Assembly: GCF_000341895.1 (NCBI RefSeq)
Contig: NC_020409.1
Location: forward strand, 3,122,411 to 3,154,410
Source of the DNA: Pseudodesulfovibrio piezophilus C1TLV30
GTDB taxonomy: Bacteria; Desulfobacterota; Desulfovibrionia; Desulfovibrionales; Desulfovibrionaceae
Reading direction: 5' to 3'
DNA length: 32,000 nucleotides
Shown: positions 2,571 to 29,951 of the stretch, in pieces
How positions within the stretch are numbered: position 1 is the first letter of the stretch
Layout: every line of letters starts with the position of its first letter
Position numbers and translations under genes: made by a program
The notes under the pieces: model-generated
Database searches by the model: none
What the model saw: only the letters and a program-made list of their open reading frames with translations
What the model was told of the DNA's origin: nothing

Positions 2571-4091
2571 TTATACCGGGTTTTCATATCCGGCAGGCAG
2601 AAATGGTGTGAGTCGCCCCCTGAGTTGGCGGGCAAATGAATTGAGAGTTTTTTGTGTCTCCATGACAGAGGAATCAGGCCTGACTGGCATTTCCAGACGA
2701 ATAAGAGCCCCATCGGTCCTTTGCCGGAAGAGTGCATCTACGAGAAGGTGCCATTTGTTGAGCCATTCGTTCACCACGACACGGCCGCGCTGCAGGAACC
2801 AGAAATTGGAAATGATGGTCTGTCCATTCTTGTCCAGAGTCATCTGCGTAACGGGGAAATTCCGTTCATCGGATTGTCCGGCGTCGAGGACCTGCTTGTT
2901 CATGATATCCCACCCTCCGCCGACCAGACATGATGTGGGCGCATGAGCGGCGTGACTTGTGGTTTGCTGATCGTACCATGATATCAGGACGTAAATGGCA
3001 TCTTGTGTGTCTTTATTCCGGAAGACCATGTTGACATAATCGTCTGCTCCCAGGCTCTGTACAACCGGTTGGGAAAGGTAAATTCTCTGCCCTGTCCAGG
3101 GGCCGATCTGTGCAGAAAAACTTGTGAAATCATGCCGCGCTTGAATGCGTTGTGCCGGGAGCAGATGGAATTGGCTGTAGAGCATGATGCCCAGGAAGCA
3201 GCATGCGGCAAAACCGGTCCATTGAGTATGCGGTAGAATCCACGGGGGGAGATTCTCTTGTGACCGGACGGGGTGGTGGGGCCGGTCGGCAAGAAGCCAT
3301 GCGCACGCCCCGAGCAGCCCAAGTGAAAGGACATAGACAAGCCAGCCTGAAAAATCGTGGAAGAATCCTTCCGCCAGAGCCGGGTTGATGAATTTGGTTA
3401 AAACCCCGGTCAGGGCAATGCGAAAGGCATTGGAAAGGATCGTGACCGGTATGGCGATGGCAAGAAGCAGAAGCCGCTTCCGTGGTGCCGAAAGGAAAAA
3501 CCATCCGACAAGTAAGGCCATAAGCAGAGATGGCCATAAATACCTCAACCCGCTACAGGCATCGACCACCTGGAGTTGAATAACTCCGAGATCAATAACA
3601 TTCCCTTCACGATAGACCGGTATCCCGATGAATTGAAGCATTTTTTCTGAAAGTACAGAGGATATCAGCCGTAATTTGAGACTGGTCATTCGTGTAATGA
3701 AAACAGGTGGTGGGACAGCAAAAAATCCTACCAACATGGGCATCCAAAGGCTTCTGATTGCCTTGTCCCCAAGATACAGCAATGCTATGCCGCAGAGTGA
3801 AATCCACATGGCGAGGTGGACAAAAAATTTGAGTGAAGCAAAGCGTCCTATGTGAAAAAACAGGACCGCGACAAGGCATATGGCAAGGCCGAGGAAGGCT
3901 CCGCCTCCTAATTTCCCTGCTCTCTTTCCTCTTTCGGTCCAGAGCAGATACCCAACGATGGGTAGAACCAGATAACAGTGTGAATAATCCTCGGCATTCC
4001 ATTCGTGCAGGAGAATGGGGAAGTCTGACCAGAATACAACAATCCATGCGATGGAGGCTGTACAATAGAAAAAATTTCGTCGCGTGAGCAT
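2571..4091 (-). CDS. Exosortase (EpsH/Xrt family) fused to a C-terminal EpsI-family domain
   Basis: 506 aa. The N-terminal polytopic membrane half carries the exosortase catalytic motifs DACSGLRY (Cys), SNAFRIALTG (Arg) and HDFSGW (His). The roughly 200-aa C-terminal soluble part (GPWTGQRIYL...YVNMVFRN...WYDQQ...RLEMP) resembles EpsI. Confidence 0.8.
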   Translation of the reverse strand: MLTRRNFFYCTASIAWIVVFWSDFPILLHEWNAEDYSHCYLVLPIVGYLLWTERGKRAGKLGGGAFLGLAICLVAVLFFHIGRFASLKFFVHLAMWISLCGIALLYLGDKAIRSLWMPMLVGFFAVPPPVFITRMTSLKLRLISSVLSEKMLQFIGIPVYREGNVIDLGVIQLQVVDACSGLRYLWPSLLMALLVGWFFLSAPRKRLLLLAIAIPVTILSNAFRIALTGVLTKFINPALAEGFFHDFSGWLVYVLSLGLLGACAWLLADRPHHPVRSQENLPPWILPHTQWTGFAACCFLGIMLYSQFHLLPAQRIQARHDFTSFSAQIGPWTGQRIYLSQPVVQSLGADDYVNMVFRNKDTQDAIYVLISWYDQQTTSHAAHAPTSCLVGGGWDIMNKQVLDAGQSDERNFPVTQMTLDKNGQTIISNFWFLQRGRVVVNEWLNKWHLLVDALFRQRTDGALIRLEMPVRPDSSVMETQKTLNSFARQLRGRLTPFLPAGYENPV

Positions 4092-4195: not shown

Positions 4196-4873
4196 TCAGG
4201 ATGCTCTCAGTCGACGAATTCCGACCATCCCCACAAGTCCGGAAAGTAACAGAAACGCACTGGCCGGGAGTGGGGTCGGATTGTAAACAAGCGCATCAAA
4301 TTGCTGGCTACCATATGAACTTCCGAGGTTCTCACCAATGAAGATTAAAGAATCTATGGTGAAAAGGGTTCCGTCGTCATCATTCAGTACCGAGAAAGAG
4401 AAAATGCTTGTGGGCAGACTTTGCAGGTCGAATGTAATGGTGTTGTTGAGTACCGTTGTCGCAATATTCAGAATGTTTGCGCTGAAGTCTTTGATTTGAA
4501 TTGTATAATTGAGATTGCTCAAGGATTGATCCAAGGTCACTGCCAAGGACCCACTTTGTTTTGTACTGCTGGCAAGGGCAAATTCCCATGCACCTTTATT
4601 AAAGAGGATTGACGGGTTGGCACTGGAAGTCGATGTCACAAGGGATTGCAGTCCACCGGCTTGAGAAATATTCCAGTCTCCGGTGAAAGTAGTGTCGATT
4701 CCACTGATCTTGTCAGTGAGTGAAGAACTGTCCGCAGATCCGCCTGTTACTGTCCCACTCCAGGAGCCGTCAGTGAAATAGGCTTCGTGAAAATATGAAA
4801 GCGAGACTGCATGAGCACTGGTGGCGCAGAGCAGCATAATTGTACTTGATATAATCAAGGACTTGAATTGCAT
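4196..4873 (-). CDS. Secreted protein with a PEP-CTERM-like (TPLPA variant) exosortase sorting signal
   Basis: The ORF-track frame 4196..5194 is over-extended. The likely start is ATG 4873 (MQFKSLIISSTIMLLCATSAHA|VS signal peptide), with GGAGGG 5 nt upstream; alternative starts are 4876 and 4885. The mature part is Ser/Thr/Asn-rich. The C-terminus is NPTPLPASAFLLLSGLVGMVGIRRLRAS: a Pro motif, a TM helix and a basic tail. Confidence 0.75.
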   Translation of the reverse strand: MQFKSLIISSTIMLLCATSAHAVSLSYFHEAYFTDGSWSGTVTGGSADSSSLTDKISGIDTTFTGDWNISQAGGLQSLVTSTSSANPSILFNKGAWEFALASSTKQSGSLAVTLDQSLSNLNYTIQIKDFSANILNIATTVLNNTITFDLQSLPTSIFSFSVLNDDDGTLFTIDSLIFIGENLGSSYGSQQFDALVYNPTPLPASAFLLLSGLVGMVGIRRLRAS

Positions 4874-4905
4874 CATTCCCTCCATTCTCGTATTTGCAGC
4901 AACAA

Positions 4906-4921
4906 TGAAATATCTGTGCCA
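4906..4921 (-). promoter_or_regulatory. Sigma-54-like -24/-12 element (TGGCACAGATATTTCA), weak -12
   Basis: The minus-strand sequence TTGGCACAGATATTTCA has a perfect -24 TGGCAC. The -12 position reads TC instead of GC. The predicted TSS is about 22 nt upstream of ATG 4873, leaving room for the GGAGGG SD. Near-identical copies occur at 11327-11342 and 16038-16053. Confidence 0.4.
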
Positions 4922-5132
4922 AGAAAAAGAAATGGTTTTTAACATACTGTTTAAAATGGTTAAATAAATATATAGAGGGATGTTGGAAAAGGGGGGAGCG
5001 TCTTTGTCTGATAAATGCAGACATGGATAAACCCGGATATCCATGAAACAATCGGGGGGGAGCCTCAAAAGGCTGTATAAAAACAGACGATATTTGGCGT
5101 TTTGAGAATGGTGGAAGTAGAAGGGCACCGCT

Positions 5133-6338
5133 CTATCCGGTGAAGAAGCTGATGAGGGAATTGAGCAAGCCTTGTTTTGAACCCGTCTGTTCATCGGTTT
5201 TTAGTCTCTCCGTTTTTCCCAGACGTTGGTGCTTTTCGAGTTCCTTGCCTAACATTTTGTTTTTGTGAAAGAGGGCGATACAACGCCCGAAATATCGCTC
5301 TGATCTGACCCGTTCCTTGTCCAGCAGGTCAGTGAGTGAGTTAACGAGTTTTTCATTACCGGCCGCTATGCCCCCATCAATGTGGCCTGCCTGGATGTTG
5401 ACCTGTGCTGTCAGTTTGGAAACCATGGATTCGAGGTGGGCTACTCTGCCGAGCATATGCTCGTCCACTGCATGTTGTGCAGTCTGACTCTTGTCTGTAC
5501 CGGCTGCACGGGATGAGTCCTTTGGGTGGTGCGTAATGCCGATATTGTCCAGAACGACTTGTTCAATGACTTCGCGTGAAATGGTTGGAAGTGAATCGGC
5601 ATATCCGTAGACCAGCGCTGCGTTGCACAGGATATTGACAGCCCTTGGCACGCCTCCTGTGTGTTCGTGCAACAGATCCACGGCTCCAGCTTCAAAGATG
5701 GGTTCACTTCCTGCCCCGGCTCGCTGAAGGCGATACTCAATGTACTCACCCAGTTCTTTCCGCGATAAAGGGGCGAGGTGATAGTTGATGGCCACTCGTT
5801 GAGCCAGTTGTTCCAGCCCAGGGCTGCTGATTATGTCCCGTAATTCAGGTTGGCCCGCCAGGATTATCTGGAGCAGCGGCGTTGTCTCGGTTTGCAGGTT
5901 GGAGAGCAGTCGGACTTCTTCCAGTGCCTCATGCGAGAGATTTTGTGCTTCATCAATGATGAGGAGACAGCGGCGACCTTGCCTGAATATGTCAATGAGA
6001 TGCTGGTTCAACAAATCGAGATTGTGCGACTTGTCCTGGCTGACTCCACTGACTTCAAGCTCAATGAGGATGAGCCTGAGGAGTTCCTGGGCATCGACGT
6101 TGGTATTGAAAACGACAGCCACTTCCACATCGGAAGCAATTTGAGTCAACAGGTACTTAAGCAAAGTGGTCTTGCCGGTGCCTATCTCACCCGTGAAGAG
6201 GATAAAGCCGATATTTTCCGTGAAACCGTATTGAAGATATGTCAGCGCCTGCCGGTGCTTGTTACTTTCGTAAAGCACGCCCGGATTCGGAATGATATCG
6301 AATGGTTTGTCGCGAAGACCGTAAAATGATCGAAACAT
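5133..6338 (-). CDS. ExeA-like AAA ATPase, PEP-CTERM locus subfamily (putative secretion ATPase)
   Basis: 401 aa. N-terminus MFRSFYGLRDKPFDIIPNP..., Walker A GEIGTGKTTL, Walker B LLIIDEAQNL. Its position in the exosortase EPS operon fits this family. Confidence 0.8.
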   Translation of the reverse strand: MFRSFYGLRDKPFDIIPNPGVLYESNKHRQALTYLQYGFTENIGFILFTGEIGTGKTTLLKYLLTQIASDVEVAVVFNTNVDAQELLRLILIELEVSGVSQDKSHNLDLLNQHLIDIFRQGRRCLLIIDEAQNLSHEALEEVRLLSNLQTETTPLLQIILAGQPELRDIISSPGLEQLAQRVAINYHLAPLSRKELGEYIEYRLQRAGAGSEPIFEAGAVDLLHEHTGGVPRAVNILCNAALVYGYADSLPTISREVIEQVVLDNIGITHHPKDSSRAAGTDKSQTAQHAVDEHMLGRVAHLESMVSKLTAQVNIQAGHIDGGIAAGNEKLVNSLTDLLDKERVRSERYFGRCIALFHKNKMLGKELEKHQRLGKTERLKTDEQTGSKQGLLNSLISFFTG

Positions 6339-10760: not shown

Positions 10761-11315
10761 CTACAGTGTCGGATTCATTTTCGTCAGTTGCATGGATGCC
10801 AGTCCATAATCTTTAAGCAGCTTTTCATATGCTTTTTGCCCTTCATCGGATGATCCTGTAATCAGCGCACCCAGTTGTAATTCTTCCCCCATGACCTCAA
10901 TGCGTCTGGCCACGCATTGAAAGCGGATCGGGTCCATGTCGTCGGTGAAGGCAAATATGATTTCGAATCTCAATCCTACAGGATAGTCGGTTATGACACG
11001 GCCACACAGCTTTTTCCCGGAGCAGACAATACGGATGCCGATAGGGGAAATGTCCTTGAGCAAGGCTGGTTGATAGACGACCGATGCACCATTTTCCTCT
11101 TCAATATAAATGATCGCCGGGACGTTGACTTCAACACGTTGAAAAGAACGCCTCTCTTCCTCGGTTGCACATGGAGACTGCTGCGTATGAATATATTCTT
11201 CGACAATTGCTTCAAGCAGAGCTTCAGGAGGCGTACCGAGTTCTTTGGCGATCGTCTCCAGGTCAAGGGCCAGTTCGCCGCTGATGGAATACCGAGGGAA
11301 AACATCTTCAGACAT
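10761..11315 (-). CDS. PilZ-domain protein with a ribbon-helix-helix-like N-terminus (putative c-di-GMP receptor/regulator), first gene of the EPS export operon
   Basis: 184 aa. The PilZ motifs are RSFQR (RxxxR) and DISPIG (DxSxxG). The N-terminus RYSISGELALDLETIAKELGTPPEALLEAIVEEYI has a strand-helix-helix pattern. Its stop codon is 13 nt from the Wza-like start. It is a paralogue of 13177..13704. Confidence 0.7.
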   Translation of the reverse strand: MSEDVFPRYSISGELALDLETIAKELGTPPEALLEAIVEEYIHTQQSPCATEEERRSFQRVEVNVPAIIYIEEENGASVVYQPALLKDISPIGIRIVCSGKKLCGRVITDYPVGLRFEIIFAFTDDMDPIRFQCVARRIEVMGEELQLGALITGSSDEGQKAYEKLLKDYGLASMQLTKMNPTL

Positions 11316-11326: not shown

Positions 11327-11342
11327 TGAAATAATTGTGCCA
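11327..11342 (-). promoter_or_regulatory. Sigma-54-like element (TGGCACAATTATTTCA), copy B of the recurrent motif
   Basis: The minus strand reads TTTTGGCACAATTATTTCA, immediately upstream of the RHH-PilZ gene. The -12 position reads TC rather than GC. The predicted TSS would fall on the start codon, so its function is uncertain. Confidence 0.3.
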
Positions 11343-11552
11343 AAAGAAAAATAGTTAAGCATATGCTCACCCTTGCTCCGACAAAATACATCTAAGAGAC
11401 CATAAACAATTGCATTCTGGAAAAATCGGACAGGTTGACCGGGAGTATCTCCCGTACTGCTCAGGAAAAAACACCATTTTTACCCCTATGACTTCATTCC
11501 CTCTTCCAAATATTAATTTACCGTGCGATAGAGAAGTCCGATTTCGTTACGT

Positions 11553-11625
11553 TACCAAGCCAAACTGGGTGTGAGCCCAGGACGGAAAGCCACGGGTCTC
11601 TTGGAGATAGCCGGGTTGCCAATTG
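11553..11625 (+). promoter_or_regulatory. Candidate c-di-GMP-I (GEMM) riboswitch aptamer in the prsR leader
   Basis: The sequence reads G-CC-AAA-[CUGGGU-GUGA-GCCCAG]-GAC-GG-AAAGCC-[second hairpin with UCUC/GAGA core]-UAGCCGGGUUGCC. It lines up element by element with the V. cholerae Vc2 aptamer as I recall it: GGGCAAA-[CCAUUC-GAAA-GAGUGG]-GACGCAAAGCC ... UAGCGGGGUUACC. Both have a 6-bp stem capped by a GNRA tetraloop. There is an apparent compensatory change (G..C in Vc2, C60..G85 here) at the pair closing the AAA/GAC internal loop. Confidence 0.6.
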
Positions 11626-11666
11626 AAGTGTGTGGATTTTCACCTTTGATTCTATAGATTGGTGCC

Positions 11667-13106
11667 ATGGCTCGAATTCTGCTGATAGACGATGCACAGG
11701 ACTTTTGTCTGATTTTTGCGACAATGCTCAAGCGCCTTGGGTTTGATTGCATTACTTCGACGAGTCTTGAGGCCGGCCTTCAGGAACTGGAGAAAAACCC
11801 TTTTGATCTCGTTTTTCTCGATGTTTATCTCGGTGCGCACAGCGGGCTTGACCATATCGCCGGTGTCATGAACTCACCGGGCAATCCTGATGTCATCATC
11901 ATCTCGGCCAGCGGCAGCGGAAAAAACGCCGAAGAAGCCATTCAACTCGGCTCATGGGATTTTCTCGTCAAACCCGTGAGTTTTACTGATCTCGAAAAGT
12001 GTATTTCCCGATGTCTCAAGCATAGGGAAGCCAAAAGTCGATTCATTGCCGAATCCACATTCCATCGGGGACCAATTATTGGAGGCAGTCCTCAACTGCT
12101 TCGGGCCATCCAGTGGGTCGGCATCGTTGCCCGGTCCAAGAATAACGTCCTTATTCTTGGCGAAACAGGGACCGGCAAGGAGCTGTTTGCCCGAGCTGTT
12201 CACGAGAATAGTGAGCGGAGCAGTCAATCCTTTACGGTTGTCGATTGTACTAATCTGCCGACGACTTTGGCGCAAAGTATCCTGTTCGGTCATGAGAAAG
12301 GGACTTTTACCGATGCGAAAGAACGGCGGGAGGGGCTTTTCAAACAGGCGGATGGTGGAACCATCTTTTTAGATGAAATTGCGGATCTCGATATGACTAT
12401 CCAGAAGGCCCTTTTACGGGTTTTGCAAGATCATACTTTCCGGCCGCTGAGTTCCAGGAATGAGGTGAAAAGTGATTTTCGCCTCGTGGCCGCGACGAAC
12501 AGGGACCTGCCTCAAATGGTCCATGACGGGACTTTTCGTCAGGATCTCTATTATCGCCTCAAATCATGTATTATCAATCTGCCGCCTTTGAGAGAAAGGG
12601 TAGATGATATCGCTCCCCTGGCTATTCATTATATGAAAAAGATATGCAAGGAGCAGGGGATTCCCAAAAAGAGGTTTTCAGATGATTATCTCCAGGCCTT
12701 GAGGGAATATCACTGGGCAGGGAATGTCCGGGAGTTGATCAATACCGTCAATCATTCCATTTCAAATTCCTTTGATGCAAAGACACTCCATTCCTATCAT
12801 CTTTCAAGGGAATTGCGAGTCTGCCTGGTCAAAAACAATGTTGAAAATGCAGACCAGAAACTGACTACTGATTTCATTCAGCCACTGTCATCGCTCCCTG
12901 ACGATCACTTCAGTCAGGAGGAATTACCGACATTCAAGGAAGTTCGAAAAAAGGTCGTCAGTCAATTGGAGGCGGAATATCTTTTGGAATTGGTCAACCG
13001 GACTGCCGGTGATATCAAAGCAGCTTGCAAGGTGGCAGGATTGTCGAGGGCACGTCTCTACGAACTTCTGCAAAAGCATGAGATCGATTACAAGCACGCA
13101 AGTTAG
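11667..13106 (+). CDS. prsR: Sigma-54-dependent response regulator (NtrC family; PrsR-like PEP-CTERM-locus activator)
   Basis: 479 aa. It has a receiver domain (LLIDD...DLVFLDVYL), an AAA+ sigma-54 interaction domain (GETGTGKELFARAVH, GTIFLDEI, GTFTDA loop, NVRELIN) and a C-terminal Fis-type HTH (AACKVAGLSRARLYELLQKH). Confidence 0.85.
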   Translation: MARILLIDDAQDFCLIFATMLKRLGFDCITSTSLEAGLQELEKNPFDLVFLDVYLGAHSGLDHIAGVMNSPGNPDVIIISASGSGKNAEEAIQLGSWDFLVKPVSFTDLEKCISRCLKHREAKSRFIAESTFHRGPIIGGSPQLLRAIQWVGIVARSKNNVLILGETGTGKELFARAVHENSERSSQSFTVVDCTNLPTTLAQSILFGHEKGTFTDAKERREGLFKQADGGTIFLDEIADLDMTIQKALLRVLQDHTFRPLSSRNEVKSDFRLVAATNRDLPQMVHDGTFRQDLYYRLKSCIINLPPLRERVDDIAPLAIHYMKKICKEQGIPKKRFSDDYLQALREYHWAGNVRELINTVNHSISNSFDAKTLHSYHLSRELRVCLVKNNVENADQKLTTDFIQPLSSLPDDHFSQEELPTFKEVRKKVVSQLEAEYLLELVNRTAGDIKAACKVAGLSRARLYELLQKHEIDYKHAS

Positions 13107-13176: not shown

Positions 13177-13704
13177 TTATGGTGAAAATTGTAAAATCTC
13201 TTTGAGGACATCCAGGCTGTCTCCGGTTGATTTGATGAACGCACATCCCAATTCGGAGACATCTTTTTCAAAGACGTGTTTGACCTCACAAGTGAAACAA
13301 ACCGGGTACTGTCTTTCTGGAACCGTAAAAATGATCTCAACGTGATGTCCCACACCAATGATTCTCATCAGGTCTTTCGGCGCGTAATCGCACTGTAACT
13401 TGAGCCCTCCCACAGAGACATCGCGCACTTTCCCCGGTAAAATGGCTGTTCCGACCTCTTCACTGATAGGTCTGGCAACAGCAGAGAGGTTGACAACAGT
13501 GCGGTCGTGTGCCCGCCGGTTGCTGGCCTTGACACCGAGATAATTTTCAATCGCCTTGACTATCAGTTCATTGACATCCCGGTTTTCCAACGTAGCCCTG
13601 TCTTGAAGTGCTTCGTTAATCTCTTCGACCACCTGAAAGCAGATTGTTACTGTATGGCCCACATTTTTTCTCATTTTCAAATGCTCAAGTAGGAAGAGAG
13701 GCAT
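13177..13704 (-). CDS. PilZ-domain protein with a ribbon-helix-helix-like N-terminus (paralogue of 10761..11315)
   Basis: 175 aa; the alternative start ATG 13674 gives MRKNVGHTVTICF.... The N-terminus HTVTICFQVVEEINEALQDRATLENRDVNELIVKAIENYL looks like a CopG/RHH fold. The PilZ motifs are RAHDR (RxxxR) and DVSVGG (DxSxxG). The segment EIIFTVPERQYPVCFTCEV matches EIIFAFTDDMDPIRFQCVA in the paralogue. Confidence 0.7.
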   Translation of the reverse strand: MPLFLLEHLKMRKNVGHTVTICFQVVEEINEALQDRATLENRDVNELIVKAIENYLGVKASNRRAHDRTVVNLSAVARPISEEVGTAILPGKVRDVSVGGLKLQCDYAPKDLMRIIGVGHHVEIIFTVPERQYPVCFTCEVKHVFEKDVSELGCAFIKSTGDSLDVLKEILQFSP

Positions 13705-13782: not shown

Positions 13783-13798
13783 AGCCAGTTCCATGCCA
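13783..13798 (-). promoter_or_regulatory. Sigma-54 promoter (TGGCATGGAACTGGCT) upstream of the second RHH-PilZ gene
   Basis: The minus-strand sequence has correct GG-N10-GC spacing, lies about 80 nt upstream of the 13704 start and points toward the gene. Confidence 0.5.
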
Positions 13799-13909: not shown

Positions 13910-15583
13910 ATGAGAGTTGATAATTGGAAGATGACAATGGGCAGTTTTCGTCTTTGCCAATGCGAAAGAATGCCAGCTTCAACTGAGTTGAAGTGTATAA
14001 TCAAAAGGTTGCAGGAGTCTCCCGAGGCCTGTGTCGGCTTGATGGCTGGAGGGCGTCTCAAAGGAATTGTGACCATTGAGACTCTTATCGCGAACCTTGA
14101 TTCCCATTCTGGGAGGTTGGAAGGCTCGTCTGCCCTTGAGTGTGCCTCAACGAGTTTTGTGATGACCAGTGGGGATGTTTTCTTCACCGATTTTCTGTAC
14201 GAAAACTCTTCGAAATCATATGACAATATTATTTTAACAAGTTCCCATGGACAAATCAGTCTTGTTGCCAAGGATACTTTTCGTCAAATACTTACCTTTA
14301 AAAACCGCCGGATACGTGAAGTCCTTCCTGTGACTTCCGGGGTCCCGGCTCTTAATGAGAAAGAGAGTTGTCTCAAGGCTCTGGAGCTTTTAAGTCATGA
14401 GGAACACCCGCATGTTGTCAGTTTGGGAAATGATGGCCCAACCGGAGTTGTGACGCGGCACGATATCTCCAGAGCCATTGAAATGCGACAAAACCTTTGG
14501 GATATACGACTTGTTGATGTGGCTCAGAGCAATGTGACTGTCTTGAGGGAGGATATTTCGGCAGAAGAAGCTCTTTTTCAATTGGAGGGAAATCCAAACA
14601 GGCTGATCATTTGCGAGGATTCCGATGGCGGCGTTCGTTCCGTGGTTGATATTATGCAGCTCCGTCGTGCCCTGATCGGTTTGCTCAAGCCGAAAAAATA
14701 TGAAATTGCGTACCAGGGAGTTGCCCAGAGACAGCTCAGTGATATCCTTATTGAACGGGTCATGAGTGATACCATGGGTATAGGAGTGGTGGCTCTGACA
14801 CCCGATCTAGAGATTCAATACAGTAACAGGACAGCGAAAAAACTCTTGGGCCTGAGTTCTGTTTCTCTGAGTAGAAAAAGCGCGTATTCTCTTTCTCATG
14901 ACATCCCGCTTCTGGAAAATGTCGTGCATGCTGTGGGCATGTTGGACCCCGTTTCCAATCCGGTTGTCGATTTGAGCAACAGGACGGATTTTCCCTCGAA
15001 TTATCAGACGAAATTGACAGGGGTATGGAAGAATAATGATCCGAGTGGTTTTATTGTTACCATCCAAAATTCCACTGATGTTCGACTCGCTGAAGCAAAG
15101 CTGCGAAAGCTGGCGTATTACGATGCCTTGACCGGGTTGCCGAATAGGACATTGCTTTTTGAGAGATTGAATATGGAGATCAGGAAAAGCCGCAGGTATA
15201 ATGAAGAGTTTGCAGTGGTGTTTGTTGATTTGAACGGGTTCAAGGGAATCAATGATCGCTATGGTCATCGTTACGGAGATCAGCTTCTTATCAAGGTTGC
15301 CAACCGATTTTCCAATGTCCTGCGTGAAACCGATACGGTTGCCAGGCTCGGTGGCGATGAATTCCTTTTTATTCTCCCTGGCGCATCCTTCATGGAAACA
15401 GCATGGGTTGTCTCCAAGAAGATACTCGCCGTGCTGGATGAGCCGATTGTTTTGGAAGAGGTGACAGTCTCCATCGATGCCAGTTTCGGGACAGCGTACT
15501 TTCCGGAAAATGGGCTGACCCCCGAGGAACTTATCGATTTTGCCGATCAGGAAATGTACGAATCGAAAAGACTTGGACTCTAA
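13910..15583 (+). CDS. CBS-CBS-PAS-GGDEF diguanylate cyclase
   Basis: 557 aa. It contains CBS-like modules (LKGIVTIETLIANL, PTGVVTRHDISRAIEM, VRSVVDIMQLRRAL), a PAS-like segment (MGIGVVALTPDLEIQYSNRTAKKLLG) and a GGDEF domain (YYDALTGLPNR ... RLGGDEFLFIL). An RxxD I-site (RETD) sits 5 residues before GGDEF. The exact start codon is uncertain. Confidence 0.85.
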   Translation: MRVDNWKMTMGSFRLCQCERMPASTELKCIIKRLQESPEACVGLMAGGRLKGIVTIETLIANLDSHSGRLEGSSALECASTSFVMTSGDVFFTDFLYENSSKSYDNIILTSSHGQISLVAKDTFRQILTFKNRRIREVLPVTSGVPALNEKESCLKALELLSHEEHPHVVSLGNDGPTGVVTRHDISRAIEMRQNLWDIRLVDVAQSNVTVLREDISAEEALFQLEGNPNRLIICEDSDGGVRSVVDIMQLRRALIGLLKPKKYEIAYQGVAQRQLSDILIERVMSDTMGIGVVALTPDLEIQYSNRTAKKLLGLSSVSLSRKSAYSLSHDIPLLENVVHAVGMLDPVSNPVVDLSNRTDFPSNYQTKLTGVWKNNDPSGFIVTIQNSTDVRLAEAKLRKLAYYDALTGLPNRTLLFERLNMEIRKSRRYNEEFAVVFVDLNGFKGINDRYGHRYGDQLLIKVANRFSNVLRETDTVARLGGDEFLFILPGASFMETAWVVSKKILAVLDEPIVLEEVTVSIDASFGTAYFPENGLTPEELIDFADQEMYESKRLGL

Positions 15584-16115: not shown

Positions 16116-16131
16116 TGGCATCATACTCGCT
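16116..16131 (+). promoter_or_regulatory. Sigma-54 promoter (TGGCATCATACTCGCT) for the second exosortase-substrate gene
   Basis: GG-N10-GC spacing is exact. The site lies 36 nt upstream of ATG 16167, leaving a leader of about 25 nt that contains the GAGGAGAG SD. Confidence 0.55.
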
Positions 16132-16166
16132 TTTCTTTGGAAAGCTTATTCAGAGGAGAGAATATT

Positions 16167-16664
16167 ATGCTGAACGCGATACGTTTTATTCTGTTTGCAG
16201 CGGTGTTGAGCTTTCCTGGGATTGCGTCTGCTGCACTTTGGGCAGACAGTGGGACCTATTCGCCATTTAGCGATGGTGAAACCTACGCGGTTTTGGGGAG
16301 TGATGTTGGCTCTCTCGCACCGGGGACCTATGAATTTTCAATCACCTACACCACTCTTGGCACCTGGGATTCAGAATCCGATCCCGAGGATTCCATGATC
16401 CTTTCCGCTTTTTCGGATGGCTATAGCAAGTATTTTGCCGAGGCCGCCAGTGACATGAGCTTTTCCAATACGTACACAAAAACGCTCATCTTTACATTGA
16501 CTTCCGTGCTGAACGGCATTTTTGTTCAGTCGGATGTCACCGGAATCGATGAGAAGTGGGAGTTTGTCAGTGCTTCCATCAATGCGACTCCGGTACCGGG
16601 AGCCTTTTGGTTGCTTGGCAGCGGCCTGCTCGGTTTGATTGGTCTGCGGCGTCGATTGATCTAA
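16167..16664 (+). CDS. Secreted protein with a PEP-CTERM-like (TPVPGA variant) exosortase sorting signal
   Basis: The start is ATG 16167, 6 nt after GAGGAGAG (the ORF-track start 16137 is a non-ATG extension). The signal peptide is MLNAIRFILFAAVLSFPGIASA|AL. The C-terminus is NATPVPGAFWLLGSGLLGLIGLRRRLI. Confidence 0.8.
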   Translation: MLNAIRFILFAAVLSFPGIASAALWADSGTYSPFSDGETYAVLGSDVGSLAPGTYEFSITYTTLGTWDSESDPEDSMILSAFSDGYSKYFAEAASDMSFSNTYTKTLIFTLTSVLNGIFVQSDVTGIDEKWEFVSASINATPVPGAFWLLGSGLLGLIGLRRRLI

Positions 16665-21623: not shown

Positions 21624-21689
21624 GGTGAGCGGTTGTATTGCTGGATGCTGCCAAATGGGAAGATGAAAGCATTGAACTCAAAGGATGTC

Positions 21690-22373
21690 ATGGTGGAAAA
21701 GGAAAGGGCTGTAAGCAGAAAAGTGCAGGGGGAGGAAACCCGTGCACTGCTGATTGATGTCGGGGCACGTCTTTTTGGCCTTCATGGGTTTCACGGGGTG
21801 AGCATGCGGCAGTTGGCTGCTGAGGCCGGAGTCAATCTGTCGACCGTGGGGTATCATTTTGGTGGGAAAGCTGGACTGTACGAGGCTATTCTGCAGGAAC
21901 TCATCGCCATGCGCGACGAGATATTCCCACCGATCCCAGAGCTTGAGAAGCGTCTGTCCGAAGCAGCAGGGAATGCCAATGATCTGGCGGAAGTTGTCTC
22001 TTGGTATATGAACAGGCTTGTTCATGGTATTCTCGGGCAGAAAAGGGAGAGTTGGCCAGCTTTCATCATTTCCCGTGAATTGGCCCAATCCACGGAGTTG
22101 TATCCAAAAATCGAAAAAGAATTTTTCGACCCGACATTCAGTTCACTTTTTATTTTGGTCGATGCGGTTCTGCCGGATGTTGACGACAGGGAAGAAATTG
22201 TTATTACCAGCCACTGTATTATTGGTATGATTATCAAATTTCTGGAAAGTCATAAATTGATAACCAAACGTTTGAATTGGGAATCCTATAGAGGGCGCGG
22301 GGTTGAAAAGATCTCCGTCATTATGAGCAAACGCATTAGAGGCTTCCTTGGCCTTCCCATGGAGAATGCATGA
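21690..22373 (+). CDS. TetR/AcrR-family transcriptional regulator
   Basis: The preferred start is ATG 21690 (MVEKERAV...), preceded by AAGGA; ATG 21663 is an alternative. The HTH region is TRALLIDVGARLFGLHGFHGVSMRQLAAEAGVNLSTVGYHFGGKAGLY. The stop codon overlaps the start of the RND adaptor gene (ATGA). Confidence 0.8.
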   Translation: MVEKERAVSRKVQGEETRALLIDVGARLFGLHGFHGVSMRQLAAEAGVNLSTVGYHFGGKAGLYEAILQELIAMRDEIFPPIPELEKRLSEAAGNANDLAEVVSWYMNRLVHGILGQKRESWPAFIISRELAQSTELYPKIEKEFFDPTFSSLFILVDAVLPDVDDREEIVITSHCIIGMIIKFLESHKLITKRLNWESYRGRGVEKISVIMSKRIRGFLGLPMENA

Positions 22374-23470
22374 TGAAATATAGGTTTGTTTTCGGTTTTG
22401 TCGTGATGTCCTGCCTTGTCCTTTTGCAGGCGTGCGGTGGGGGCCAGGAAGAGGTCGCTGCCCCTCCCCGTCCTGTCAAAACCATGATCGTGAAGGAATA
22501 TGACATCGGTCAGCAATGGACATTTGCCGGAACTGCAGAAGATGCTCTTGAAACGCAGCTTTCATTTCGGGTGGGTGGAAAGATTATTGCTTTTCCCGGC
22601 GAACAGATAGGACGAAAGTTTTCCAAAGGCGCAGTGATCGCCCGCCTCGATCCTAGTGATTACGAACTGGAATATCGTCAGGCCAAAGCGAATCTGGAGC
22701 AGGTGCGTGCCAATTATGTGCGTGCCAAGGCAGATATGCAGCGGAATACGGAACTCTATAGACGAAGTGTCATCTCCCGTGGCGAATTGGATCAGATTGA
22801 GGCTGATTTCAAGTCCTATGAGGCGCAACTCAGCGCATCGGCCAAGCAACTCGATATTGCCCGCAAGCATCTCAGTTATACGACCCTGAATGCGCCATTT
22901 GATGGCTGGATAGGAGAAGTTCAGGCTCAGGTGCACCAGAACGTTGCTTCGGGGCAGGCAGTCGCTTCTTTCAATGCAGGTCGTGAGATGAAAATGTATG
23001 TCGCTGTACCGGATACGTTGATCGCACAGGTCCATGAAGGTGACAAGGTCGAGGTCCGGTTTGATGCTCTGCCCGGCACGATCTTGTTCGGCAAAGTCAT
23101 GGAGGTCAGTGTTGATTCCACAGCCAGTTCGACCTATCCGGTCAAGGTCTATCTTGATAATAAAAACAGGCTGTTGCGAAGTGGCATGTCCGGTCAGGTC
23201 AGTTTTCTTGGACGAGAATCTTCAGGCGCACGCTATTTTGTTCCGCCTGTGGCCGTATTAGGCAAAACGGATGGAACGCGCTCTCTCTGGATCGTTGACC
23301 CTGCGACCTCGACTGTCTCCAGTCAGACGGTGACCATAGGAAGTCTTTCAGAGCATGGTCTCGAAATTGTGGAAGGAGTCAAAAAAGGTGATATCATTGT
23401 GACACGGGGTGTCCATCACCTGAAAGAGGGCCTGAAGGTTCGCTATTCCAGTCGTGGTACGGAGGGATAA
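22370..23470 (+). CDS. RND efflux periplasmic adaptor (membrane fusion protein, HlyD family) lipoprotein
   Basis: 366 aa. It has the lipobox LVLLQAC, a coiled-coil hairpin (YRQAKANLEQVRANYVRAKADMQR...) and barrel-sandwich/beta-barrel segments. Confidence 0.85.
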   Translation: MMKYRFVFGFVVMSCLVLLQACGGGQEEVAAPPRPVKTMIVKEYDIGQQWTFAGTAEDALETQLSFRVGGKIIAFPGEQIGRKFSKGAVIARLDPSDYELEYRQAKANLEQVRANYVRAKADMQRNTELYRRSVISRGELDQIEADFKSYEAQLSASAKQLDIARKHLSYTTLNAPFDGWIGEVQAQVHQNVASGQAVASFNAGREMKMYVAVPDTLIAQVHEGDKVEVRFDALPGTILFGKVMEVSVDSTASSTYPVKVYLDNKNRLLRSGMSGQVSFLGRESSGARYFVPPVAVLGKTDGTRSLWIVDPATSTVSSQTVTIGSLSEHGLEIVEGVKKGDIIVTRGVHHLKEGLKVRYSSRGTEG

Positions 23471-23472
23471 TC

Positions 23473-26400
23473 ATGAATCTCGCCAAGTGGTGCATCAAGA
23501 ATAATCGTACTTCCCTCGTCCTGTTCGTGATCATCGCTCTTGGCGGTATCATGACTTTTATCAATATTCCCAAGGATGAAGACCCTGATTTTACCATCCG
23601 TACCGCTCTTGTCTCAACTCAGTTTCCAGGTGCATCTCCCCAGCGCGTGGAGGAATTGGTCACAGATAAGCTTGAGGAAAAGATTCGAGAATTGAGCGGG
23701 ATCAAAGTTGTTCGGTCCCAGTCCATGACCGGGGTTTCCATTATTGAGGCTGAATTCGAGGATTCACTGAAGGATATGGAACCTGTCTGGCAGAAATTGC
23801 GTAACAAGGTTTCCGATGCGGAATCATCCTTGCCGGATGAAGCCTACGAACCTGTGGTCAATGATGAATTTGGCGATGTCTTTGGGATTGTCATTGCCTT
23901 GACCGGGGATGGATTTTCCTACCGTGAACTTAAGGACGCCGCTGATTCCATGCGGGACCAGTTATTGAAGATTGACGGCGTCGGCAAAGTGGAGCGATGG
24001 GGGACCCAGGCTGAGCGTATCTTTGTAGAATTTTCCAATTCTCGTATGGCTGCGGCAGGTGTCAGTCCTTTTGCCCTGGCCCAGATCATCGATAATCAGA
24101 ATACAATTCAGCCCAGTGGTTCCAGTCAGGTTGGGCCGGAGCGTATTGTTATTGAGCCGACTGGAGAATTCAAGGGAGTGGACGATATCTATGCCCTGAG
24201 TATTCGCCCTGCCGGACAGAAGACATCCGTCAGGCTGGCAGACGTCGCGACGATTACACGGGGGTTTACTGACCCGCCGTCTACCATGACCCGGTACAAT
24301 GGGCGTCCCGGTTTGTTTCTCGCCGTTTCCATGGCAGATGGCGGCAATATCACGGAACTGGGAGAACGGGTTCAGAAACGGTTGGGTGAATTACGCCAGG
24401 ACATGTTCCTGGGCATGGATGCGGACGTTTTGGTTTTTCAACCGGATTACGTGAACACTGCCATCAGTGATTTCATGCTGAATCTTCTTGAGTCCTTCGG
24501 TTTTGTGGTTATCGTGATCCTTGCCTTTGCGGGCTTTCGAACCGGTTTGATAGCAGGGTCTCTCGTGCCTATGGCGATGCTTGGTTGCATTTGCCTCATG
24601 CCGTTTTTCGATGTCGGGCTGCAACGTATTTCCATTGCTTCATTGATTATCTCACTCGGTATTCTTGTTGATAACGGGGTCGTTGTTTCCGAAGCCATTC
24701 TTGTCAGACTGGCTGCGGGTGAGGAGCGACTCAAAGCGGTGGCCGGTGCTGTCAGCGAGTTGTGGATGCCGTTGCTCGCCGCTTCATTGACAACTATTTT
24801 CGCTTTTCTCCCTATCCCCTTGGCTGAGAATGCTACGGGTGAATTCTGTTTTTCCCTTTTTGTGGTGGTCTCTTTGGCCCTGTTGTGTTCGTGGGGCATG
24901 TCCATGAGCATGGTGCCGATGATGTGTTACTACATTCTTAAGCCGAAGTTGAAGGTGGAGACTTATATGGGGCGTCTCTATCGGTGGTATCGCAGTTTTC
25001 TTCTTCTGTGCTTGCGCAATAGAACGGTCTTTCTTGCCGGAGTCCTTCTCTGTTGCGGCGTGGCTGTATGGGGATTCAAGTATGTTCCGAAAATGTTCTT
25101 TCCCCCTAATGAACGGGCGCAGTTCACCATTGATTTTTGGCAGCCTTATGGAACGGACATTACCACGACAAACAAACGGGTGACTCGACTTGAAAAATTC
25201 CTTCTTGCGGACAAGGATATTGATAGTGTTGGTGTTTTTGTCGGGCATGGTGGGCCTCGCTGGTATCTGCCGCTCAATCTCGAACAGCAGAATAGCAATC
25301 TGGCCACATTCGTGATCAATACCAAGTCCGTGGAATCCGTTGATCCCCTTATTTCACGGACGAGAAAGGAATTGGAAGAGGCATTCCCTGATGCGGATTA
25401 CAGTTTGAATAAACTGATGAATGGGCCACCGGTCGGTGCTCCGCTTCAGGTGCGTATTTCCGGCCCTGACATGAAAACCTTGTATGCTCTGCGAGATAAG
25501 GTGGTCGCACTTGTCGAAAAGCAACCCGGCATTACCCGTGTTTGGGATGACTGGGGGCAGTGGACCAAGAAAATGCTGGTTAAAATTGATCAGGAGAAGG
25601 CTCGCAAGGCCGGGTTAACCAGTTTTGACGTGGCAGTGAGCCTACAAACCAGCATGAGCGGTCTTCAGGCTTCAGAGTATCGGGATGGGGACACTTCGAT
25701 TCCGATCCTGCTTCGTAACAATGAAGGCGTCCGTGATCATCTCGATAAAGTCGGAAGCCTGAATGTGTATTCCTACGATAGCGGAAAGAGTGTGCCTTTG
25801 AGTCAGGTGGCTGAGACGAAACTTGATTGGCAACCCTCTGATATCCGGCGTAGGGACCAGACACGGACCATGACTGTCAAGGCGAATGTGGGAGAAGGAT
25901 ACTATGCTCTTACTATTTTGGGATCGATTCGACCTCAAATCGATGAACTCATGAAGCAGGGAGATTGGCCGATCGGGTACACCGTCGAGTACGGAGGAGA
26001 ATTTGAAAAGAGTGTGGAATCTCAGGAAGCGATTAATGCCAATATGCCTCTTGCCATGGGGCTGTTGGTCTTGGTTTTGGTCTTTCAATTCAATTCGCTC
26101 CGACGCCCGTTGATCATTCTCCTGACATTGCCTCCCATGATGGTCGGTATCACCGCCGGGATGCTCGCGACCAATGCTCCCTTCGGCTTCATGCCTATGC
26201 TCGGCATGATTTCTCTCCTGGGTATTATCGTCAATAATGCGATTATGCTCATAGACCGGATAGAAATTCAAAGGAGCCGGGGAATGGATCTTGCCAACAG
26301 CATCGTGATATCAGCCATGGAGAGGGCGAGACCCATCATCATGACTGCAACCACGACGATTATCGGCATGATTCCACTCTCGTTGCAGGGGGGCGAAATG

Positions 26401-28992: not shown

Positions 28993-29021
28993 TGAGTTGT
29001 CTCTGTGTGGTTTTATGATAA

Positions 29022-29951
<930 letters not shown>

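What the first reader, a model, noticed from the sequence alone, without database searches (positions are those of the whole stretch)
11553..11625. Probable c-di-GMP-I (GEMM) riboswitch controlling the sigma-54 activator of the exosortase locus
The prsR leader contains all the conserved blocks of the c-di-GMP-I aptamer, in the right order. (1) G59 followed by CC-AAA. (2) A 6-bp hairpin, CUGGGU/GCCCAG, capped by the GNRA tetraloop GUGA. (3) GAC-GG-AAAGCC. (4) A second hairpin. (5) UAGCCGGGUUGCC. Against the Vc2 aptamer (GGGCAAA-CCAUUC GAAA GAGUGG-GACGCAAAGCC ... UAGCGGGGUUACC), the two differences flanking the first hairpin (G to C on the 5' side, C to G on the 3' side) are mutually compensatory and preserve a base pair. 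The positions equivalent to the ligand-contacting G20 and A47 are conserved. A weak sigma-70-like promoter (TGACTT-N16-TATTAA, 11489-11516) would place the aptamer inside a leader of about 140 nt. A riboswitch feeding c-di-GMP levels into a PrsR-type enhancer-binding protein would be a new regulatory connection for PEP-CTERM/exosortase systems.
Basis: partly seen in the sequence, partly recalled or inferred. Interest (0 to 1): 0.8.

Follow-up and report, generated by a model that had tools for sequence, protein, structure and literature searches.

The report
c-di-GMP riboswitch upstream of sigma-54 activator
The stretch is a genuine, ordinary-class c-di-GMP-sensing riboswitch in the leader of a sigma-54 transcription activator (not PrsR) next to an exosortase/exopolysaccharide gene cluster in Pseudodesulfovibrio piezophilus; it is a correct call of a known RNA family in a gene context that has been noted before in a related bacterium.

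Summary
Confirmed: window 11550-11624 (+) is a c-di-GMP-I (GEMM-I) aptamer. Rfam scores it 63.3 bits (E 7e-13). A leave-out covariance model built from six orthologous aptamers scores it 86.4 bits, the only significant hit in 32 kb. The same aptamer precedes the orthologous gene in 8 of 13 Desulfovibrionaceae loci. Covariation is strong: 93% of cells paired and 12 of 25 pairs changed on both sides. The ligand-contact bases (G20/A47/C92 equivalents) are invariant, so it is the canonical c-di-GMP type, although Rfam's best model is the 'GGC' variant. The downstream gene is a sigma-54 response-regulator activator but not PrsR: it scores 287 bits against a cutoff of 503, and true PrsR is a separate neighbouring gene in two relatives. 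The proposed promoter is not supported; a conserved extended -10-like motif at 11524-11532 fits better. No terminator is shared. The aptamer's 5' half is complementary to the start-codon region, so a translational ON switch is the best guess (inferred, moderate confidence). Conserved sigma-54-type promoters precede the flanking PilZ, EPS and VPLPA-CTERM/XrtD genes, which suggests a cascade from c-di-GMP to activator to exosortase locus. A GEMM-I riboswitch before an NtrC-family regulator was already reported in O. alaskensis, and GEMM-I before PEP-CTERM genes elsewhere. This is a new member of a known kind, of modest interest.

The parts
11524..11532 (+). Candidate extended -10 promoter element (TG-c-GATAGA). 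It would place the TSS near 11539-11541, about 10 nt before P1.
   Evidence: A TGn-CATAGA-like motif lies 20-26 nt upstream of the aptamer in 7 of 8 aptamer-bearing leaders. This is an inference; no TSS data exist.
11550..11624 (+). c-di-GMP-I (GEMM-I) aptamer of the GYRA-tetraloop, receptor-less subtype.
   Evidence: Rfam 63.3 bits. Leave-out model R2 86.4 bits. Covariation in 8 orthologs.
11551..11553 (+). P1 5' strand (GUU), pairing with 11621-11623 (AAU). Only 3 pairs form in this species.
   Evidence: Alignment A3 columns 13-15 with 87-89. P1 has changes on both sides at 4 of 5 pairs across the orthologs but is only 70% paired.
11559..11561 (+). G20-equivalent ligand contact (G11559) plus the junction bases C11560 and C11561, which pair with G11585 and G11584.
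   Evidence: Invariant in all 8 sequences. cmscan alignment.
11565..11580 (+). P1a hairpin CUGGGU-GUGA-GCCCAG.
   Evidence: 100% paired across the orthologs; 5 of 6 pairs show changes on both sides.
11586..11586 (+). A47-equivalent, the base that intercalates between the two guanines of the ligand. It is A here; the GGC-variant consensus has G.
   Evidence: cmscan alignment, model position 37. Invariant A in all 8.
11588..11617 (+). P2 hairpin (AGCC-A-CGGGUCUC / GAGAU-AG-CCGGGUU) with bulged A11592.
   Evidence: 97.9% paired; 3 pairs changed on both sides.
11619..11619 (+). C92-equivalent, which forms a Watson-Crick contact to the ligand.
   Evidence: cmscan model position 75. Invariant C in all 8.
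11625..11672 (+). Expression platform and translation initiation region: UUGGUG (11659-11664), AUG (11667-11669), UGGCU (11668-11672). These are complementary to aptamer segments UACCAA (11553-11558), AGCCA (11558-11562) and GCCAAU (11618-11623).
   Evidence: Free-state MFE pairs CGU+UACCAA with UUGGUG..AUG. NGCCA x UGGCN is conserved in 6 of 8 leaders. No terminator on the + strand.
11667..13106 (+). Sigma-54-dependent response-regulator activator (REC + AAA+ + weak Fis-type HTH). Not PrsR. L1 loop reads GTFTDA.
   Evidence: 100% identical to a Pseudodesulfovibrio piezophilus protein.
11327..11342 (-). Sigma-54-type promoter-like motif TGGCACAATTATTTCA, upstream of the divergent PilZ/EPS/exosortase operon.
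   Evidence: One mismatch to the consensus. TGGCAY-N5-TTTCA lies in the same position in 7 of 13 orthologous loci.
11441..11453 (.). Palindrome GGGAGTATCTCCC, a candidate regulator/UAS site between the divergent promoters.
   Evidence: GGGA-N5-TCCC lies 101-109 nt upstream of the aptamer in 5 of 8 aptamer-bearing loci.
10761..11315 (-). PilZ-domain protein, first gene of the divergent EPS operon.
   Evidence: Pfam PF07238, 29.3 bits against a cutoff of 22.5.
4906..4921 (-). Second sigma-54-type motif TGGCACAGATATTTCA, about 30 nt upstream of the VPLPA-CTERM protein gene.
   Evidence: 14 of 16 bases identical to the motif at 11327-11342.
4196..4884 (-). VPLPA-CTERM protein, the likely XrtD substrate. 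The probable real start is at about 4884-4872.
   Evidence: TIGR03370, 25.0 bits against a cutoff of 25.35. Signal peptide after the SD sequence GGAGGGA.
2571..4091 (-). Exosortase XrtD with an EpsI domain.
   Evidence: TIGR04152, 449.2 bits against a cutoff of 400.
13177..13704 (-). Second PilZ-domain protein, preceded by the sigma-54-type motif TGGCATGGAACTGGCT at 13783-13798 (-).
   Evidence: Pfam 33.7 bits. The motif is conserved in 7 of 13 loci.
13910..15583 (+). CBS-PAS-GGDEF diguanylate cyclase.
   Evidence: Syntenic in the orthologous loci.

Best explanation
Window 11550-11624 encodes a canonical c-di-GMP-I (GEMM-I) riboswitch aptamer of the GYRA-tetraloop, receptor-less subtype. It lies at the 5' end of the mRNA for a sigma-54-dependent response-regulator activator in Pseudodesulfovibrio piezophilus. 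This activator is a distinct family with a GTFTDA loop; it is not PrsR. Shown: family membership, structure supported by covariation, conserved placement in front of the orthologous gene in part of the Desulfovibrionaceae, and canonical G/A/C ligand-contact bases. Inferred: it binds c-di-GMP and acts at translation as an ON switch. Without ligand, the 5' half of the aptamer (P1 5' strand, J1/2 and the junction GCCA) pairs with the UUGGUG/AUGGCU initiation region. Ligand binding locks those bases into the aptamer and frees the start codon. Further inferred: the activator, once phosphorylated by an unidentified kinase, drives the conserved sigma-54-type promoters in front of the divergent PilZ-EPS-VPLPA-CTERM/XrtD operon and the downstream PilZ gene. 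c-di-GMP would then act both on regulator synthesis (riboswitch) and post-translationally (PilZ proteins), with a GGDEF cyclase encoded alongside.
For: Aptamer identity: Rfam 63.3 bits, E 7e-13, with a second clan family above its own gathering score. Orthologous aptamers are called RF01051 at 50-59 bits against a gathering score of 35. The leave-out model gives 86.4 bits and a single significant hit in the window. Structure: 93% of cells paired against 29-48% in slid controls, 12 of 25 pairs with changes on both sides, 0 of 500 shuffles as good. RNAalifold recovers the same helices independently. Ligand bases: G, A and C are invariant in 8 of 8. Cis-regulatory position: same strand, 31-120 nt before the ATG of the ortholog in 8 of 13 loci spanning 51-100% protein identity. 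No aptamer precedes the regulator in about 158 loci of more distant sigma-54 activators. Translational ON model: no terminator in the window leader and none shared among the leaders; spacers are short (31-51 nt) in four species. Free-state MFEs pair aptamer 5' segments with the initiation region. NGCCA x UGGCN forms 5 pairs in 6 of 8 leaders, with G-C, A-U, C-G and G-U at the variable outer pair (permutation p about 0.03-0.05). Duplex z-scores are negative in 7 of 8. RBS accessibility rises in 6 of 8 leaders when the aptamer is enforced. Cascade: sigma-54-type motifs sit at conserved positions before both PilZ genes and before the VPLPA-CTERM gene. The PilZ / activator / PilZ / GGDEF synteny is conserved.
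Against: No ligand-binding or expression data exist, and no TSS is mapped. In the window itself P1 has only 3 pairs (two A-U and one G-U). In the simple model, RBS accessibility does not rise there (0.47 to 0.44), and the enforced-aptamer fold is 12 kcal/mol above the free MFE. The TIR-aptamer complementarity is only modestly better than shuffles in most leaders (z -1.3 to -1.9 in five). GCCA and AUGGC are each constrained for other reasons, so the covariation rests on one variable pair. The aptamer is missing from 5 of 13 orthologous loci, so it is dispensable for the module. The total count of sigma-54 motifs in the window is not above chance (19 found, 17 expected). The -12 element TTTCA departs from the TTGC consensus, and the activator's GTFTDA loop is non-canonical. 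Activator-promoter pairing is inferred from adjacency only.
Confidence: 0.7

Rival explanations
1. It is a genuine c-di-GMP-I riboswitch, but it works differently from the proposed translational ON switch. It could be an OFF switch, or it could act on transcription elongation (Rho-dependent or non-canonical termination) or on mRNA stability.
For: The spacer length and sequence are not conserved (31-120 nt). The window's own RBS accessibility does not change in the model. L169 carries a U6 tract after a long stem, and L166 has a weak terminator-like hairpin. Many GEMM-I elements elsewhere use terminators (PMC1950547).
Against: No terminator-like site is found on the + strand in the window, L169 or L001 leaders. 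The complementarity runs between the initiation region and aptamer strands that the ligand-bound fold needs, which predicts ON rather than OFF. Biologically, high c-di-GMP normally turns EPS on.
Confidence: 0.2
2. It is a specificity variant: either a 'c-di-GMP-I-GGC' variant or a GEMM-Ib 3',3'-cGAMP sensor, responding to a ligand other than c-di-GMP.
For: The best-scoring Rfam model for the window and for L161 is RF03167 (63.3 and 62.3 bits; gathering score 59). All 8 aptamers carry an unusual flipped junction pair, C-G instead of G-C, next to the binding pocket.
Against: The column that gives the GGC family its name is A, not G, in all 8 sequences. The G20-equivalent is G, not the A typical of cGAMP sensors, and C92 is kept. 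Six of the eight are called RF01051. The locus encodes PilZ and GGDEF proteins, which are c-di-GMP components.
Confidence: 0.05
3. One reading: the riboswitch controls PrsR, the dedicated PEP-CTERM-box response regulator of the PrsK/PrsR system.
For: The gene is a sigma-54 response regulator adjacent to an exosortase operon, and TIGR02915 is among its hits.
Against: It scores 286.8 bits against a cutoff of 502.6, and only residues 45-365 align. True PrsR (622-632 bits), with a GAF kinase, is a separate neighbouring gene in L170 and L171, where the ortholog of our gene scores 297. No PrsK-like kinase lies next to it in the window.
Confidence: 0.03
4. It is a chance resemblance or a decaying relic with no function.
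For: P1 is weak in the window, and the aptamer is absent from 5 of 13 orthologous loci.
Against: E-values range from 1e-13 to 1e-19. The aptamer block is conserved while its flanks are diverged. Compensatory changes maintain every helix across 8 lineages.
Confidence: 0.02

Closest known systems
c-di-GMP-I / GEMM-I riboswitch (Rfam RF01051; type examples Vc2 upstream of tfoY in Vibrio cholerae and Cd1 in C. difficile)
   Same: Same architecture: a 2-bp junction helix, an AAA internal loop, the P1a hairpin with a GNRA-type loop, the P2 hairpin, the G20/A47/C92 contact bases and a 5'-UTR position. Like Vc2-tfoY, it sits in front of a regulator gene. It belongs to the GYRA-loop, receptor-less subtype with a bulged A near the base of P2, as described in PMC1950547.
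   Different: The junction pair is flipped (C-G instead of G-C) in the whole lineage. P2 is very short, and P1 is very short in this species. The downstream gene is a sigma-54 enhancer-binding response regulator.
c-di-GMP-I-GGC variant (Rfam RF03167)
   Same: It is the best-scoring Rfam model for the window (63.3 bits) and for L161 (62.3 bits). The overall sequence of P2 and the 3' tail is very close to that consensus.
   Different: The defining G at the A47-equivalent position is A here and in all orthologs, so it is not a GGC variant by binding-site signature. The meaning of 'GGC' is inferred from the family name and the consensus lines; the defining paper was not held.
c-di-GMP-I riboswitch in the 5'UTR of 'norR' (an NtrC-family regulator) in Oleidesulfovibrio alaskensis G20 (PMC11124144)
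   Same: Same bacterial family. It is that genome's single GEMM-I element, it precedes a sigma-54 NtrC-family regulator, and it was drawn on the c-di-GMP-I-GGC template.
   Different: Orthology to the window's gene could not be checked here. That paper gives no mechanism, no conservation analysis and no exosortase context.
c-di-GMP riboswitches upstream of PEP-CTERM/VPLPA-CTERM protein genes (Methylophaga GP59, PMC12530212) and before gsu1945/gsu1948 in Geobacter sulfurreducens, next to the PEP-motif genes GSU1943/1944 (PMC10599522)
   Same: They link c-di-GMP sensing by RNA to exosortase/EPS systems.
   Different: There the riboswitch sits directly on or next to the substrate genes. Here it sits on a transcription activator, and the substrate and exosortase genes carry sigma-54-type promoters instead.
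PrsK/PrsR two-component system of PEP-CTERM/exosortase loci (TIGR02916/TIGR02915)
   Same: A sigma-54 response regulator encoded beside an exosortase EPS locus.
   Different: The window's protein fails the PrsR model and coexists with true PrsR in relatives. It has no adjacent kinase, it has a GTFTDA loop, and it gives only a sub-threshold HTH_8 match.

Membership tests
c-di-GMP-I riboswitch (RF01051 / clan CL00126) | Covariance-model score at or above the curated gathering score | tested here: met
   A clan hit of 63.3 bits (RF03167, gathering score 59), plus one further clan family above its own gathering score. Orthologs score 50-59 bits on RF01051 (gathering score 35). The window's own RF01051 score is hidden by clan competition.
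c-di-GMP-I riboswitch (RF01051 / clan CL00126) | P1a hairpin (2-bp plus 6-bp stems with an AAA/GAC internal loop and a GNRA-type tetraloop) and the P2 hairpin, supported by covariation | tested here: met
   100% paired in the junction helix and P1a, 97.9% in P2, and 8 pairs with changes on both sides in P1a plus P2.
c-di-GMP-I riboswitch (RF01051 / clan CL00126) | Ligand-contact nucleotides equivalent to G20, A47 and C92 of Vc2 | tested here: met
   G11559, A11586 and C11619, invariant in the 8 orthologous aptamers. Vc2 numbering is from my own knowledge of the crystal structures.
c-di-GMP-I riboswitch (RF01051 / clan CL00126) | 5' regulatory configuration to a gene | tested here: met
   Same strand, 42 nt upstream of the ATG at 11667. 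The position is conserved in 8 loci. The TSS is not mapped.
c-di-GMP-I riboswitch (RF01051 / clan CL00126) | Binds c-di-GMP and changes expression of the downstream gene | not testable with these tools
   This needs in-line probing or ITC, and reporter assays.
c-di-GMP-I-GGC variant (RF03167) | G at the A47-equivalent position (model position 37) | tested here: not met
   The window has A at that column, and all 8 orthologs have A.
GEMM-Ib 3',3'-cGAMP riboswitch | A at the G20-equivalent position | tested here: not met
   G in all 8. The feature definition is from my own knowledge (Kellenberger 2015; Nelson 2015).
PrsR, PEP-CTERM-box response regulator (TIGR02915) | Score at or above the equivalog cutoff of 502.6 bits over the full length | tested here: not met
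   286.8 bits, residues 45-365 only. True PrsR scores 622-632 bits as a separate gene in L170 and L171.
Sigma-54 enhancer-binding protein (bEBP) | Sigma54_activat AAA+ domain with a GAFTGA-type L1 loop | tested here: inconclusive
   PF00158 at 209 bits. The loop reads GTFTDA: F and T are kept, positions 2 and 5 are changed, and this form is conserved in orthologs P0001-P0010.
Exosortase XrtD / VPLPA-CTERM system | An XrtD-specific model hit plus a VPLPA-CTERM substrate | tested here: met
   TIGR04152 at 449.2 bits against a cutoff of 400. The adjacent protein hits TIGR03370 at 25.0 bits against a cutoff of 25.35, which is borderline.

The most novel reading that the evidence does not exclude
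The riboswitch is the entry point of a two-tier c-di-GMP circuit specific to a Pseudodesulfovibrio-centred lineage. First tier: c-di-GMP unlocks translation of an unusual sigma-54 activator with a GTFTDA loop. It does so through an expression platform built into the ligand-binding core itself: the lineage-specific flipped junction pair creates a GCCA that base-pairs with AUGGC of the start codon. Second tier: the activator fires atypical sigma-54 promoters (TGGCAC-N5-TTTCA) in front of the PilZ/EPS genes and the VPLPA-CTERM substrate/XrtD exosortase genes, while PilZ proteins read the same signal post-translationally.
Probability: 0.3. Interest if true: 0.5.

Novelty: new member of a known kind. 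Interest (0 to 1): 0.33.

Why it matters
Regulation of exosortase/PEP-CTERM systems is poorly understood, and sulfate-reducer biofilms drive metal corrosion. A c-di-GMP riboswitch gating a sigma-54 activator beside an XrtD/EPS cluster offers a concrete, testable route from the second messenger to transcription of the exosortase locus. The route consists of one RNA, one protein and three candidate promoters. It also shows that best-hit Rfam naming can mislabel canonical aptamers as the 'GGC' variant. The RNA class itself and the general link between c-di-GMP and EPS are well established, so the advance would be incremental.

Tried and rejected
1. I could not display the window's own RF01051 score, because clan competition hides it even at E<=10. 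I substituted a leave-out model.
2. The paper that defines the GGC variant (Weinberg 2017, PNAS) is not held. I inferred the meaning of 'GGC' from the consensus lines and the family name.
3. The genome and metagenome scans with the protein gave only one close ortholog, L001. The other 159 loci are paralogs at <=47% identity without an upstream aptamer. Orthologs came from the protein database plus context look-ups instead. The P0008 look-up failed.
4. I looked for a shared intrinsic terminator and found none.
5. The minus-strand 'terminator' at 11580-11565 is only the reverse complement of P1a, so I rejected it.
6. I prefer the conserved TGn-CATAGA motif.
7. The inverted-repeat tool found nothing in the intergenic regions at seed 6. 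The GGGA-N5-TCCC palindrome came from a regular-expression search.
8. Whole-leader folding is not more stable than shuffles (z 0.22), which is uninformative for a switch.
9. The 12-bit R1 hit inside the L171 coding region is treated as chance.
Full report
OBSERVATION. Rfam cmscan over the whole 32-kb window returns a single hit, at 11550-11624 on the + strand, with 63.3 bits and E 6.8e-13. The named family is RF03167 (c-di-GMP-I-GGC, gathering score 59). One further family of the same clan (CL00126) also passes its own gathering score but is suppressed by clan competition. Two such families are suppressed at E<=10.

WHICH FAMILY. In the cmscan alignment the RF03167 consensus has G at model position 37. 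This is the base equivalent to the intercalating A47 of the Vc2 aptamer, whereas the RF01051 consensus has A. The window has A there (A11586), G at the G20-equivalent (G11559) and C at the C92-equivalent (C11619). By binding-site signature it is the canonical 'GAC' c-di-GMP type, not the 'GGC' variant and not the A20 cGAMP type. The higher score on RF03167 most likely reflects overall resemblance of the short P2 and the 3' tail to that seed. Vc2 numbering and the meaning of the variant names rest on my own knowledge plus the consensus lines; the defining paper was not available.

ORGANISM AND CONTEXT. The downstream protein is 100% identical to a Pseudodesulfovibrio piezophilus protein. It has a receiver domain, a sigma-54 AAA+ domain, an AAA lid and only a sub-threshold Fis-type HTH. 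Its L1 loop reads GTFTDA instead of GAFTGA, and this form is conserved in orthologs down to 55% identity.

Divergently upstream lies an operon encoding the following:
- a PilZ protein
- a polysaccharide export protein
- a beta-barrel protein
- a chain-length determinant
- a tyrosine kinase
- an ATPase
- a VPLPA-CTERM protein
- the exosortase XrtD
- a priming glycosyltransferase

Downstream lie a second PilZ gene, a CBS-PAS-GGDEF cyclase and a small secreted protein with a VPxPx-TM-RRR tail.

NOT PrsR. The protein scores 286.8 bits on TIGR02915 against a cutoff of 502.6. In two relatives (L170, Desulfovibrio sp. X2; L171, Alkalidesulfovibrio alkalitolerans) a GAF kinase plus a regulator scoring 622-632 bits, the real PrsK/PrsR, lies next to the ortholog of our gene, which scores 297. 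The riboswitch-associated activator is a separate family.

CONSERVATION. Protein-guided scans of genome and metagenome collections gave one close ortholog, L001 (68% identity). The other 159 loci are paralogs at <=47% identity. The protein database supplied a graded ortholog series, and I fetched the DNA around eleven of them. Rfam finds a GEMM-I aptamer in the same position in L001, L161, L162, L163, L164, L166 and L169, at 50-62 bits. Six of these are named RF01051. L165, L167, L168, L170 and L171 have none, even at relaxed thresholds. The aptamer is therefore present in 8 of 13 orthologous loci, spanning 51-100% protein identity, in a patchy pattern. My model R1 found no aptamer in front of the regulator in the remaining ~158 loci. 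It gave only three unrelated hits on the other strand. The window-versus-L001 alignment shows the aptamer as a conserved island in diverged flanks.

STRUCTURE. On the model-based alignment of the eight aptamers:
- 93% of cells form standard pairs, against 29-48% for slid controls.
- 12 of 25 pairs have changes on both sides.
- No shuffle out of 500 matches the covariation score.
- P1a covaries at 5 of 6 pairs.
- The junction pairs C-G/C-G are invariant.
- P2 is 98% paired.
- P1 covaries (4 of 5 pairs) but is only 70% paired, and in the window it is reduced to U-A, U-A and G-U.

RNAalifold on six sequences recovers the same helices on its own. That leave-out model hits the window at 86.4 bits. 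The GUGA/GCGA loops, the lack of a tetraloop receptor and the bulged A match the receptor-less GEMM subtype described in 2007 (PMC1950547).

PROMOTER. A TGn-CATAGA-like motif, consistent with an extended -10 element, lies 20-26 nt upstream of the aptamer in 7 of 8 leaders. In the window it is at 11524-11532. This would start the mRNA about 10 nt before P1. It is an inference; no TSS data exist.

EXPRESSION PLATFORM. The aptamer-to-ATG distance is 31-51 nt in four species and 70-120 nt in the others. No terminator-like site is found on the + strand in the window, L169 or L001 leaders, and L166 has only a weak 5-bp one.

In free-state folds, aptamer 5' segments pair with the initiation region. 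In the window, CGU+UACCAA (the P1 5' strand plus J1/2) pairs with UUGGUG..AUG. In L161, L001 and L164, GGCCA pairs with UGGCC of AUG-GCC.

Across the eight leaders, columns 20-24 (NGCCA) can form 5 pairs with UGGCN in six. The one freely variable pair takes G-C (three times), A-U, C-G and G-U, with permutation p about 0.03-0.05. Duplex energies between aptamer and initiation region are below the shuffled means in 7 of 8 leaders, but clearly so in only two. Enforcing the aptamer raises modelled RBS accessibility in 6 of 8 leaders, but not in the window.

Because the sequestering strands are ones the ligand-bound fold needs, the simplest reading is a translational ON switch. I put this at roughly 50-55%, and at about 95% that the element is a functional c-di-GMP-class aptamer acting in cis on this gene.

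DOWNSTREAM CIRCUIT (inferred). Sigma-54-type motifs occur at three places in the window:
- 11327-11342 (-), TGGCACAATTATTTCA, before the PilZ/EPS operon. This motif is in the same position in 7 of 13 loci.
- 4906-4921 (-), TGGCACAGATATTTCA, about 30 nt before the VPLPA-CTERM gene. It is 14 of 16 identical to the first.
- 13783-13798 (-), TGGCATGGAACTGGCT, before the second PilZ gene. This motif is present in 7 of 13 loci.

The same scan also picks up the expected nifH promoter at 29061-29076. These motifs occur in loci both with and without the aptamer, so the activator/sigma-54 module is the older unit and the riboswitch is an added input in some lineages. A palindrome GGGA-N5-TCCC at a fixed distance from the aptamer in 5 of 8 loci could be the activator's binding site. 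The total motif count in the window is not above chance (19 found, 17 expected), so the argument rests on position and conservation only.

COMPARISON WITH WHAT IS KNOWN. The RNA class has been known since 2007-2008. Control of a regulator gene by GEMM-I has the Vc2-tfoY precedent (own knowledge; tfoX-like gene association in PMC1950547). A c-di-GMP-I riboswitch in the 5'UTR of an NtrC-family 'norR' in O. alaskensis G20, drawn on the GGC template, was reported in 2024 (PMC11124144). I could not test its orthology to the window's gene. c-di-GMP riboswitches directly upstream of VPLPA-CTERM/PEP-CTERM genes are listed for Methylophaga (PMC12530212). GEMM-I elements are reported before gsu1945/gsu1948 in Geobacter, next to PEP-motif putative exosortase substrates (PMC10599522). 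The sigma-54 regulome study of D. vulgaris lists EPS-controlling activators but no riboswitch (PMC4641369).

What appears not to be described: the conserved riboswitch-activator pairing in a Pseudodesulfovibrio-centred group, the distinction from PrsR, and the candidate sigma-54 promoters of the XrtD locus.

VERDICT. This is a new member of a known kind and is of modest interest (0.33). The most novel reading still open is a core-embedded anti-start-codon platform feeding a two-tier c-di-GMP cascade onto an exosortase locus. I give it a probability of about 0.3, and it would merit about 0.5.

Noticed in passing
window 11667-13106 (residues about 207-212 of the protein): The sigma-54 activator has GTFTDA in place of the canonical GAFTGA loop. 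The variant is conserved in orthologs P0001-P0010. More distant relatives have GAFTDA, GSFTGA or GAFTGA.
   Followed up: partly
window 11327-11342 (-) and 4906-4921 (-): Two near-identical sigma-54-like promoters (14 of 16 bases) have TTTCA instead of TTGCA at the -12 element. The TTTCA form recurs in 7 orthologous loci.
   Followed up: partly
window 11441-11453; L162 3537, L163 3790, L001 5747, L164 3691: A 13-bp palindrome GGGA-N5-TCCC lies at a fixed 101-109 nt upstream of the aptamer in 5 of 8 aptamer-bearing loci. It is a possible regulator binding site shared by the divergent promoters.
   Followed up: partly
window 11550-11624 and L161 3875-3952: Best-hit Rfam naming assigns these canonical (A47-type) aptamers to the GGC-variant family RF03167 above its gathering score. 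This is a possible source of mis-annotation; the O. alaskensis paper also used the GGC template.
   Followed up: partly
window 4196-5194 (-): The ORF as listed overlaps the upstream ATPase gene. The probable real start is at about 4884-4872 (signal peptide MEGMMQFKSL... after GGAGGGA). The product ends in a borderline VPLPA-CTERM domain and is the likely XrtD substrate.
   Followed up: partly
window 16116-16664 (+): A small secreted protein (probable start at 16164) ends in VPGAFWLLGSGLLGLIGLRRRLI, a PEP-CTERM-like sorting signal with only weak model hits. A sigma-54-like motif TGGCATCATACTCGCT lies at 16116-16131.
   Followed up: partly
window 27702-30844: A nitrogen-fixation cluster begins here: a nifV-like homocitrate synthase (27702-28880, -), nifH (29037-29951, +, TIGR01287 443 bits) with a TGGCACGGGGTTTGCC promoter motif at 29061-29076, and two P-II-family genes (30117-30844).
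   Followed up: partly
L164 about 3945-3975: The ortholog's 5' end reads ATGGCCAGATACTTC where L001 has ATGGCCAGAATACTG. This one-base loss shifts the frame, so the gene was called from an internal ATG (459 aa). It is probably an assembly error in the Logan contig.
   Followed up: no
L074 11936-12045 (-), L076 2174-2282 (-), L055 3405-3521 (-): Model R1 finds GEMM-like elements (35-45 bits) elsewhere in three unrelated loci (deltaproteobacterial and Nitrospirae MAGs), on the strand opposite the sigma-54 regulator that brought the locus in. Their downstream genes were not examined.
   Followed up: no
window 11580-11565 (-): The terminator scan calls a minus-strand terminator-like site that is simply the reverse complement of the P1a hairpin followed by TTTGG. 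This is an artefact of the aptamer's own hairpin.
   Followed up: yes
window 21633-26571 (+): A TetR-family regulator, an RND adaptor and an RND permease form an efflux operon unrelated to the finding.
   Followed up: no
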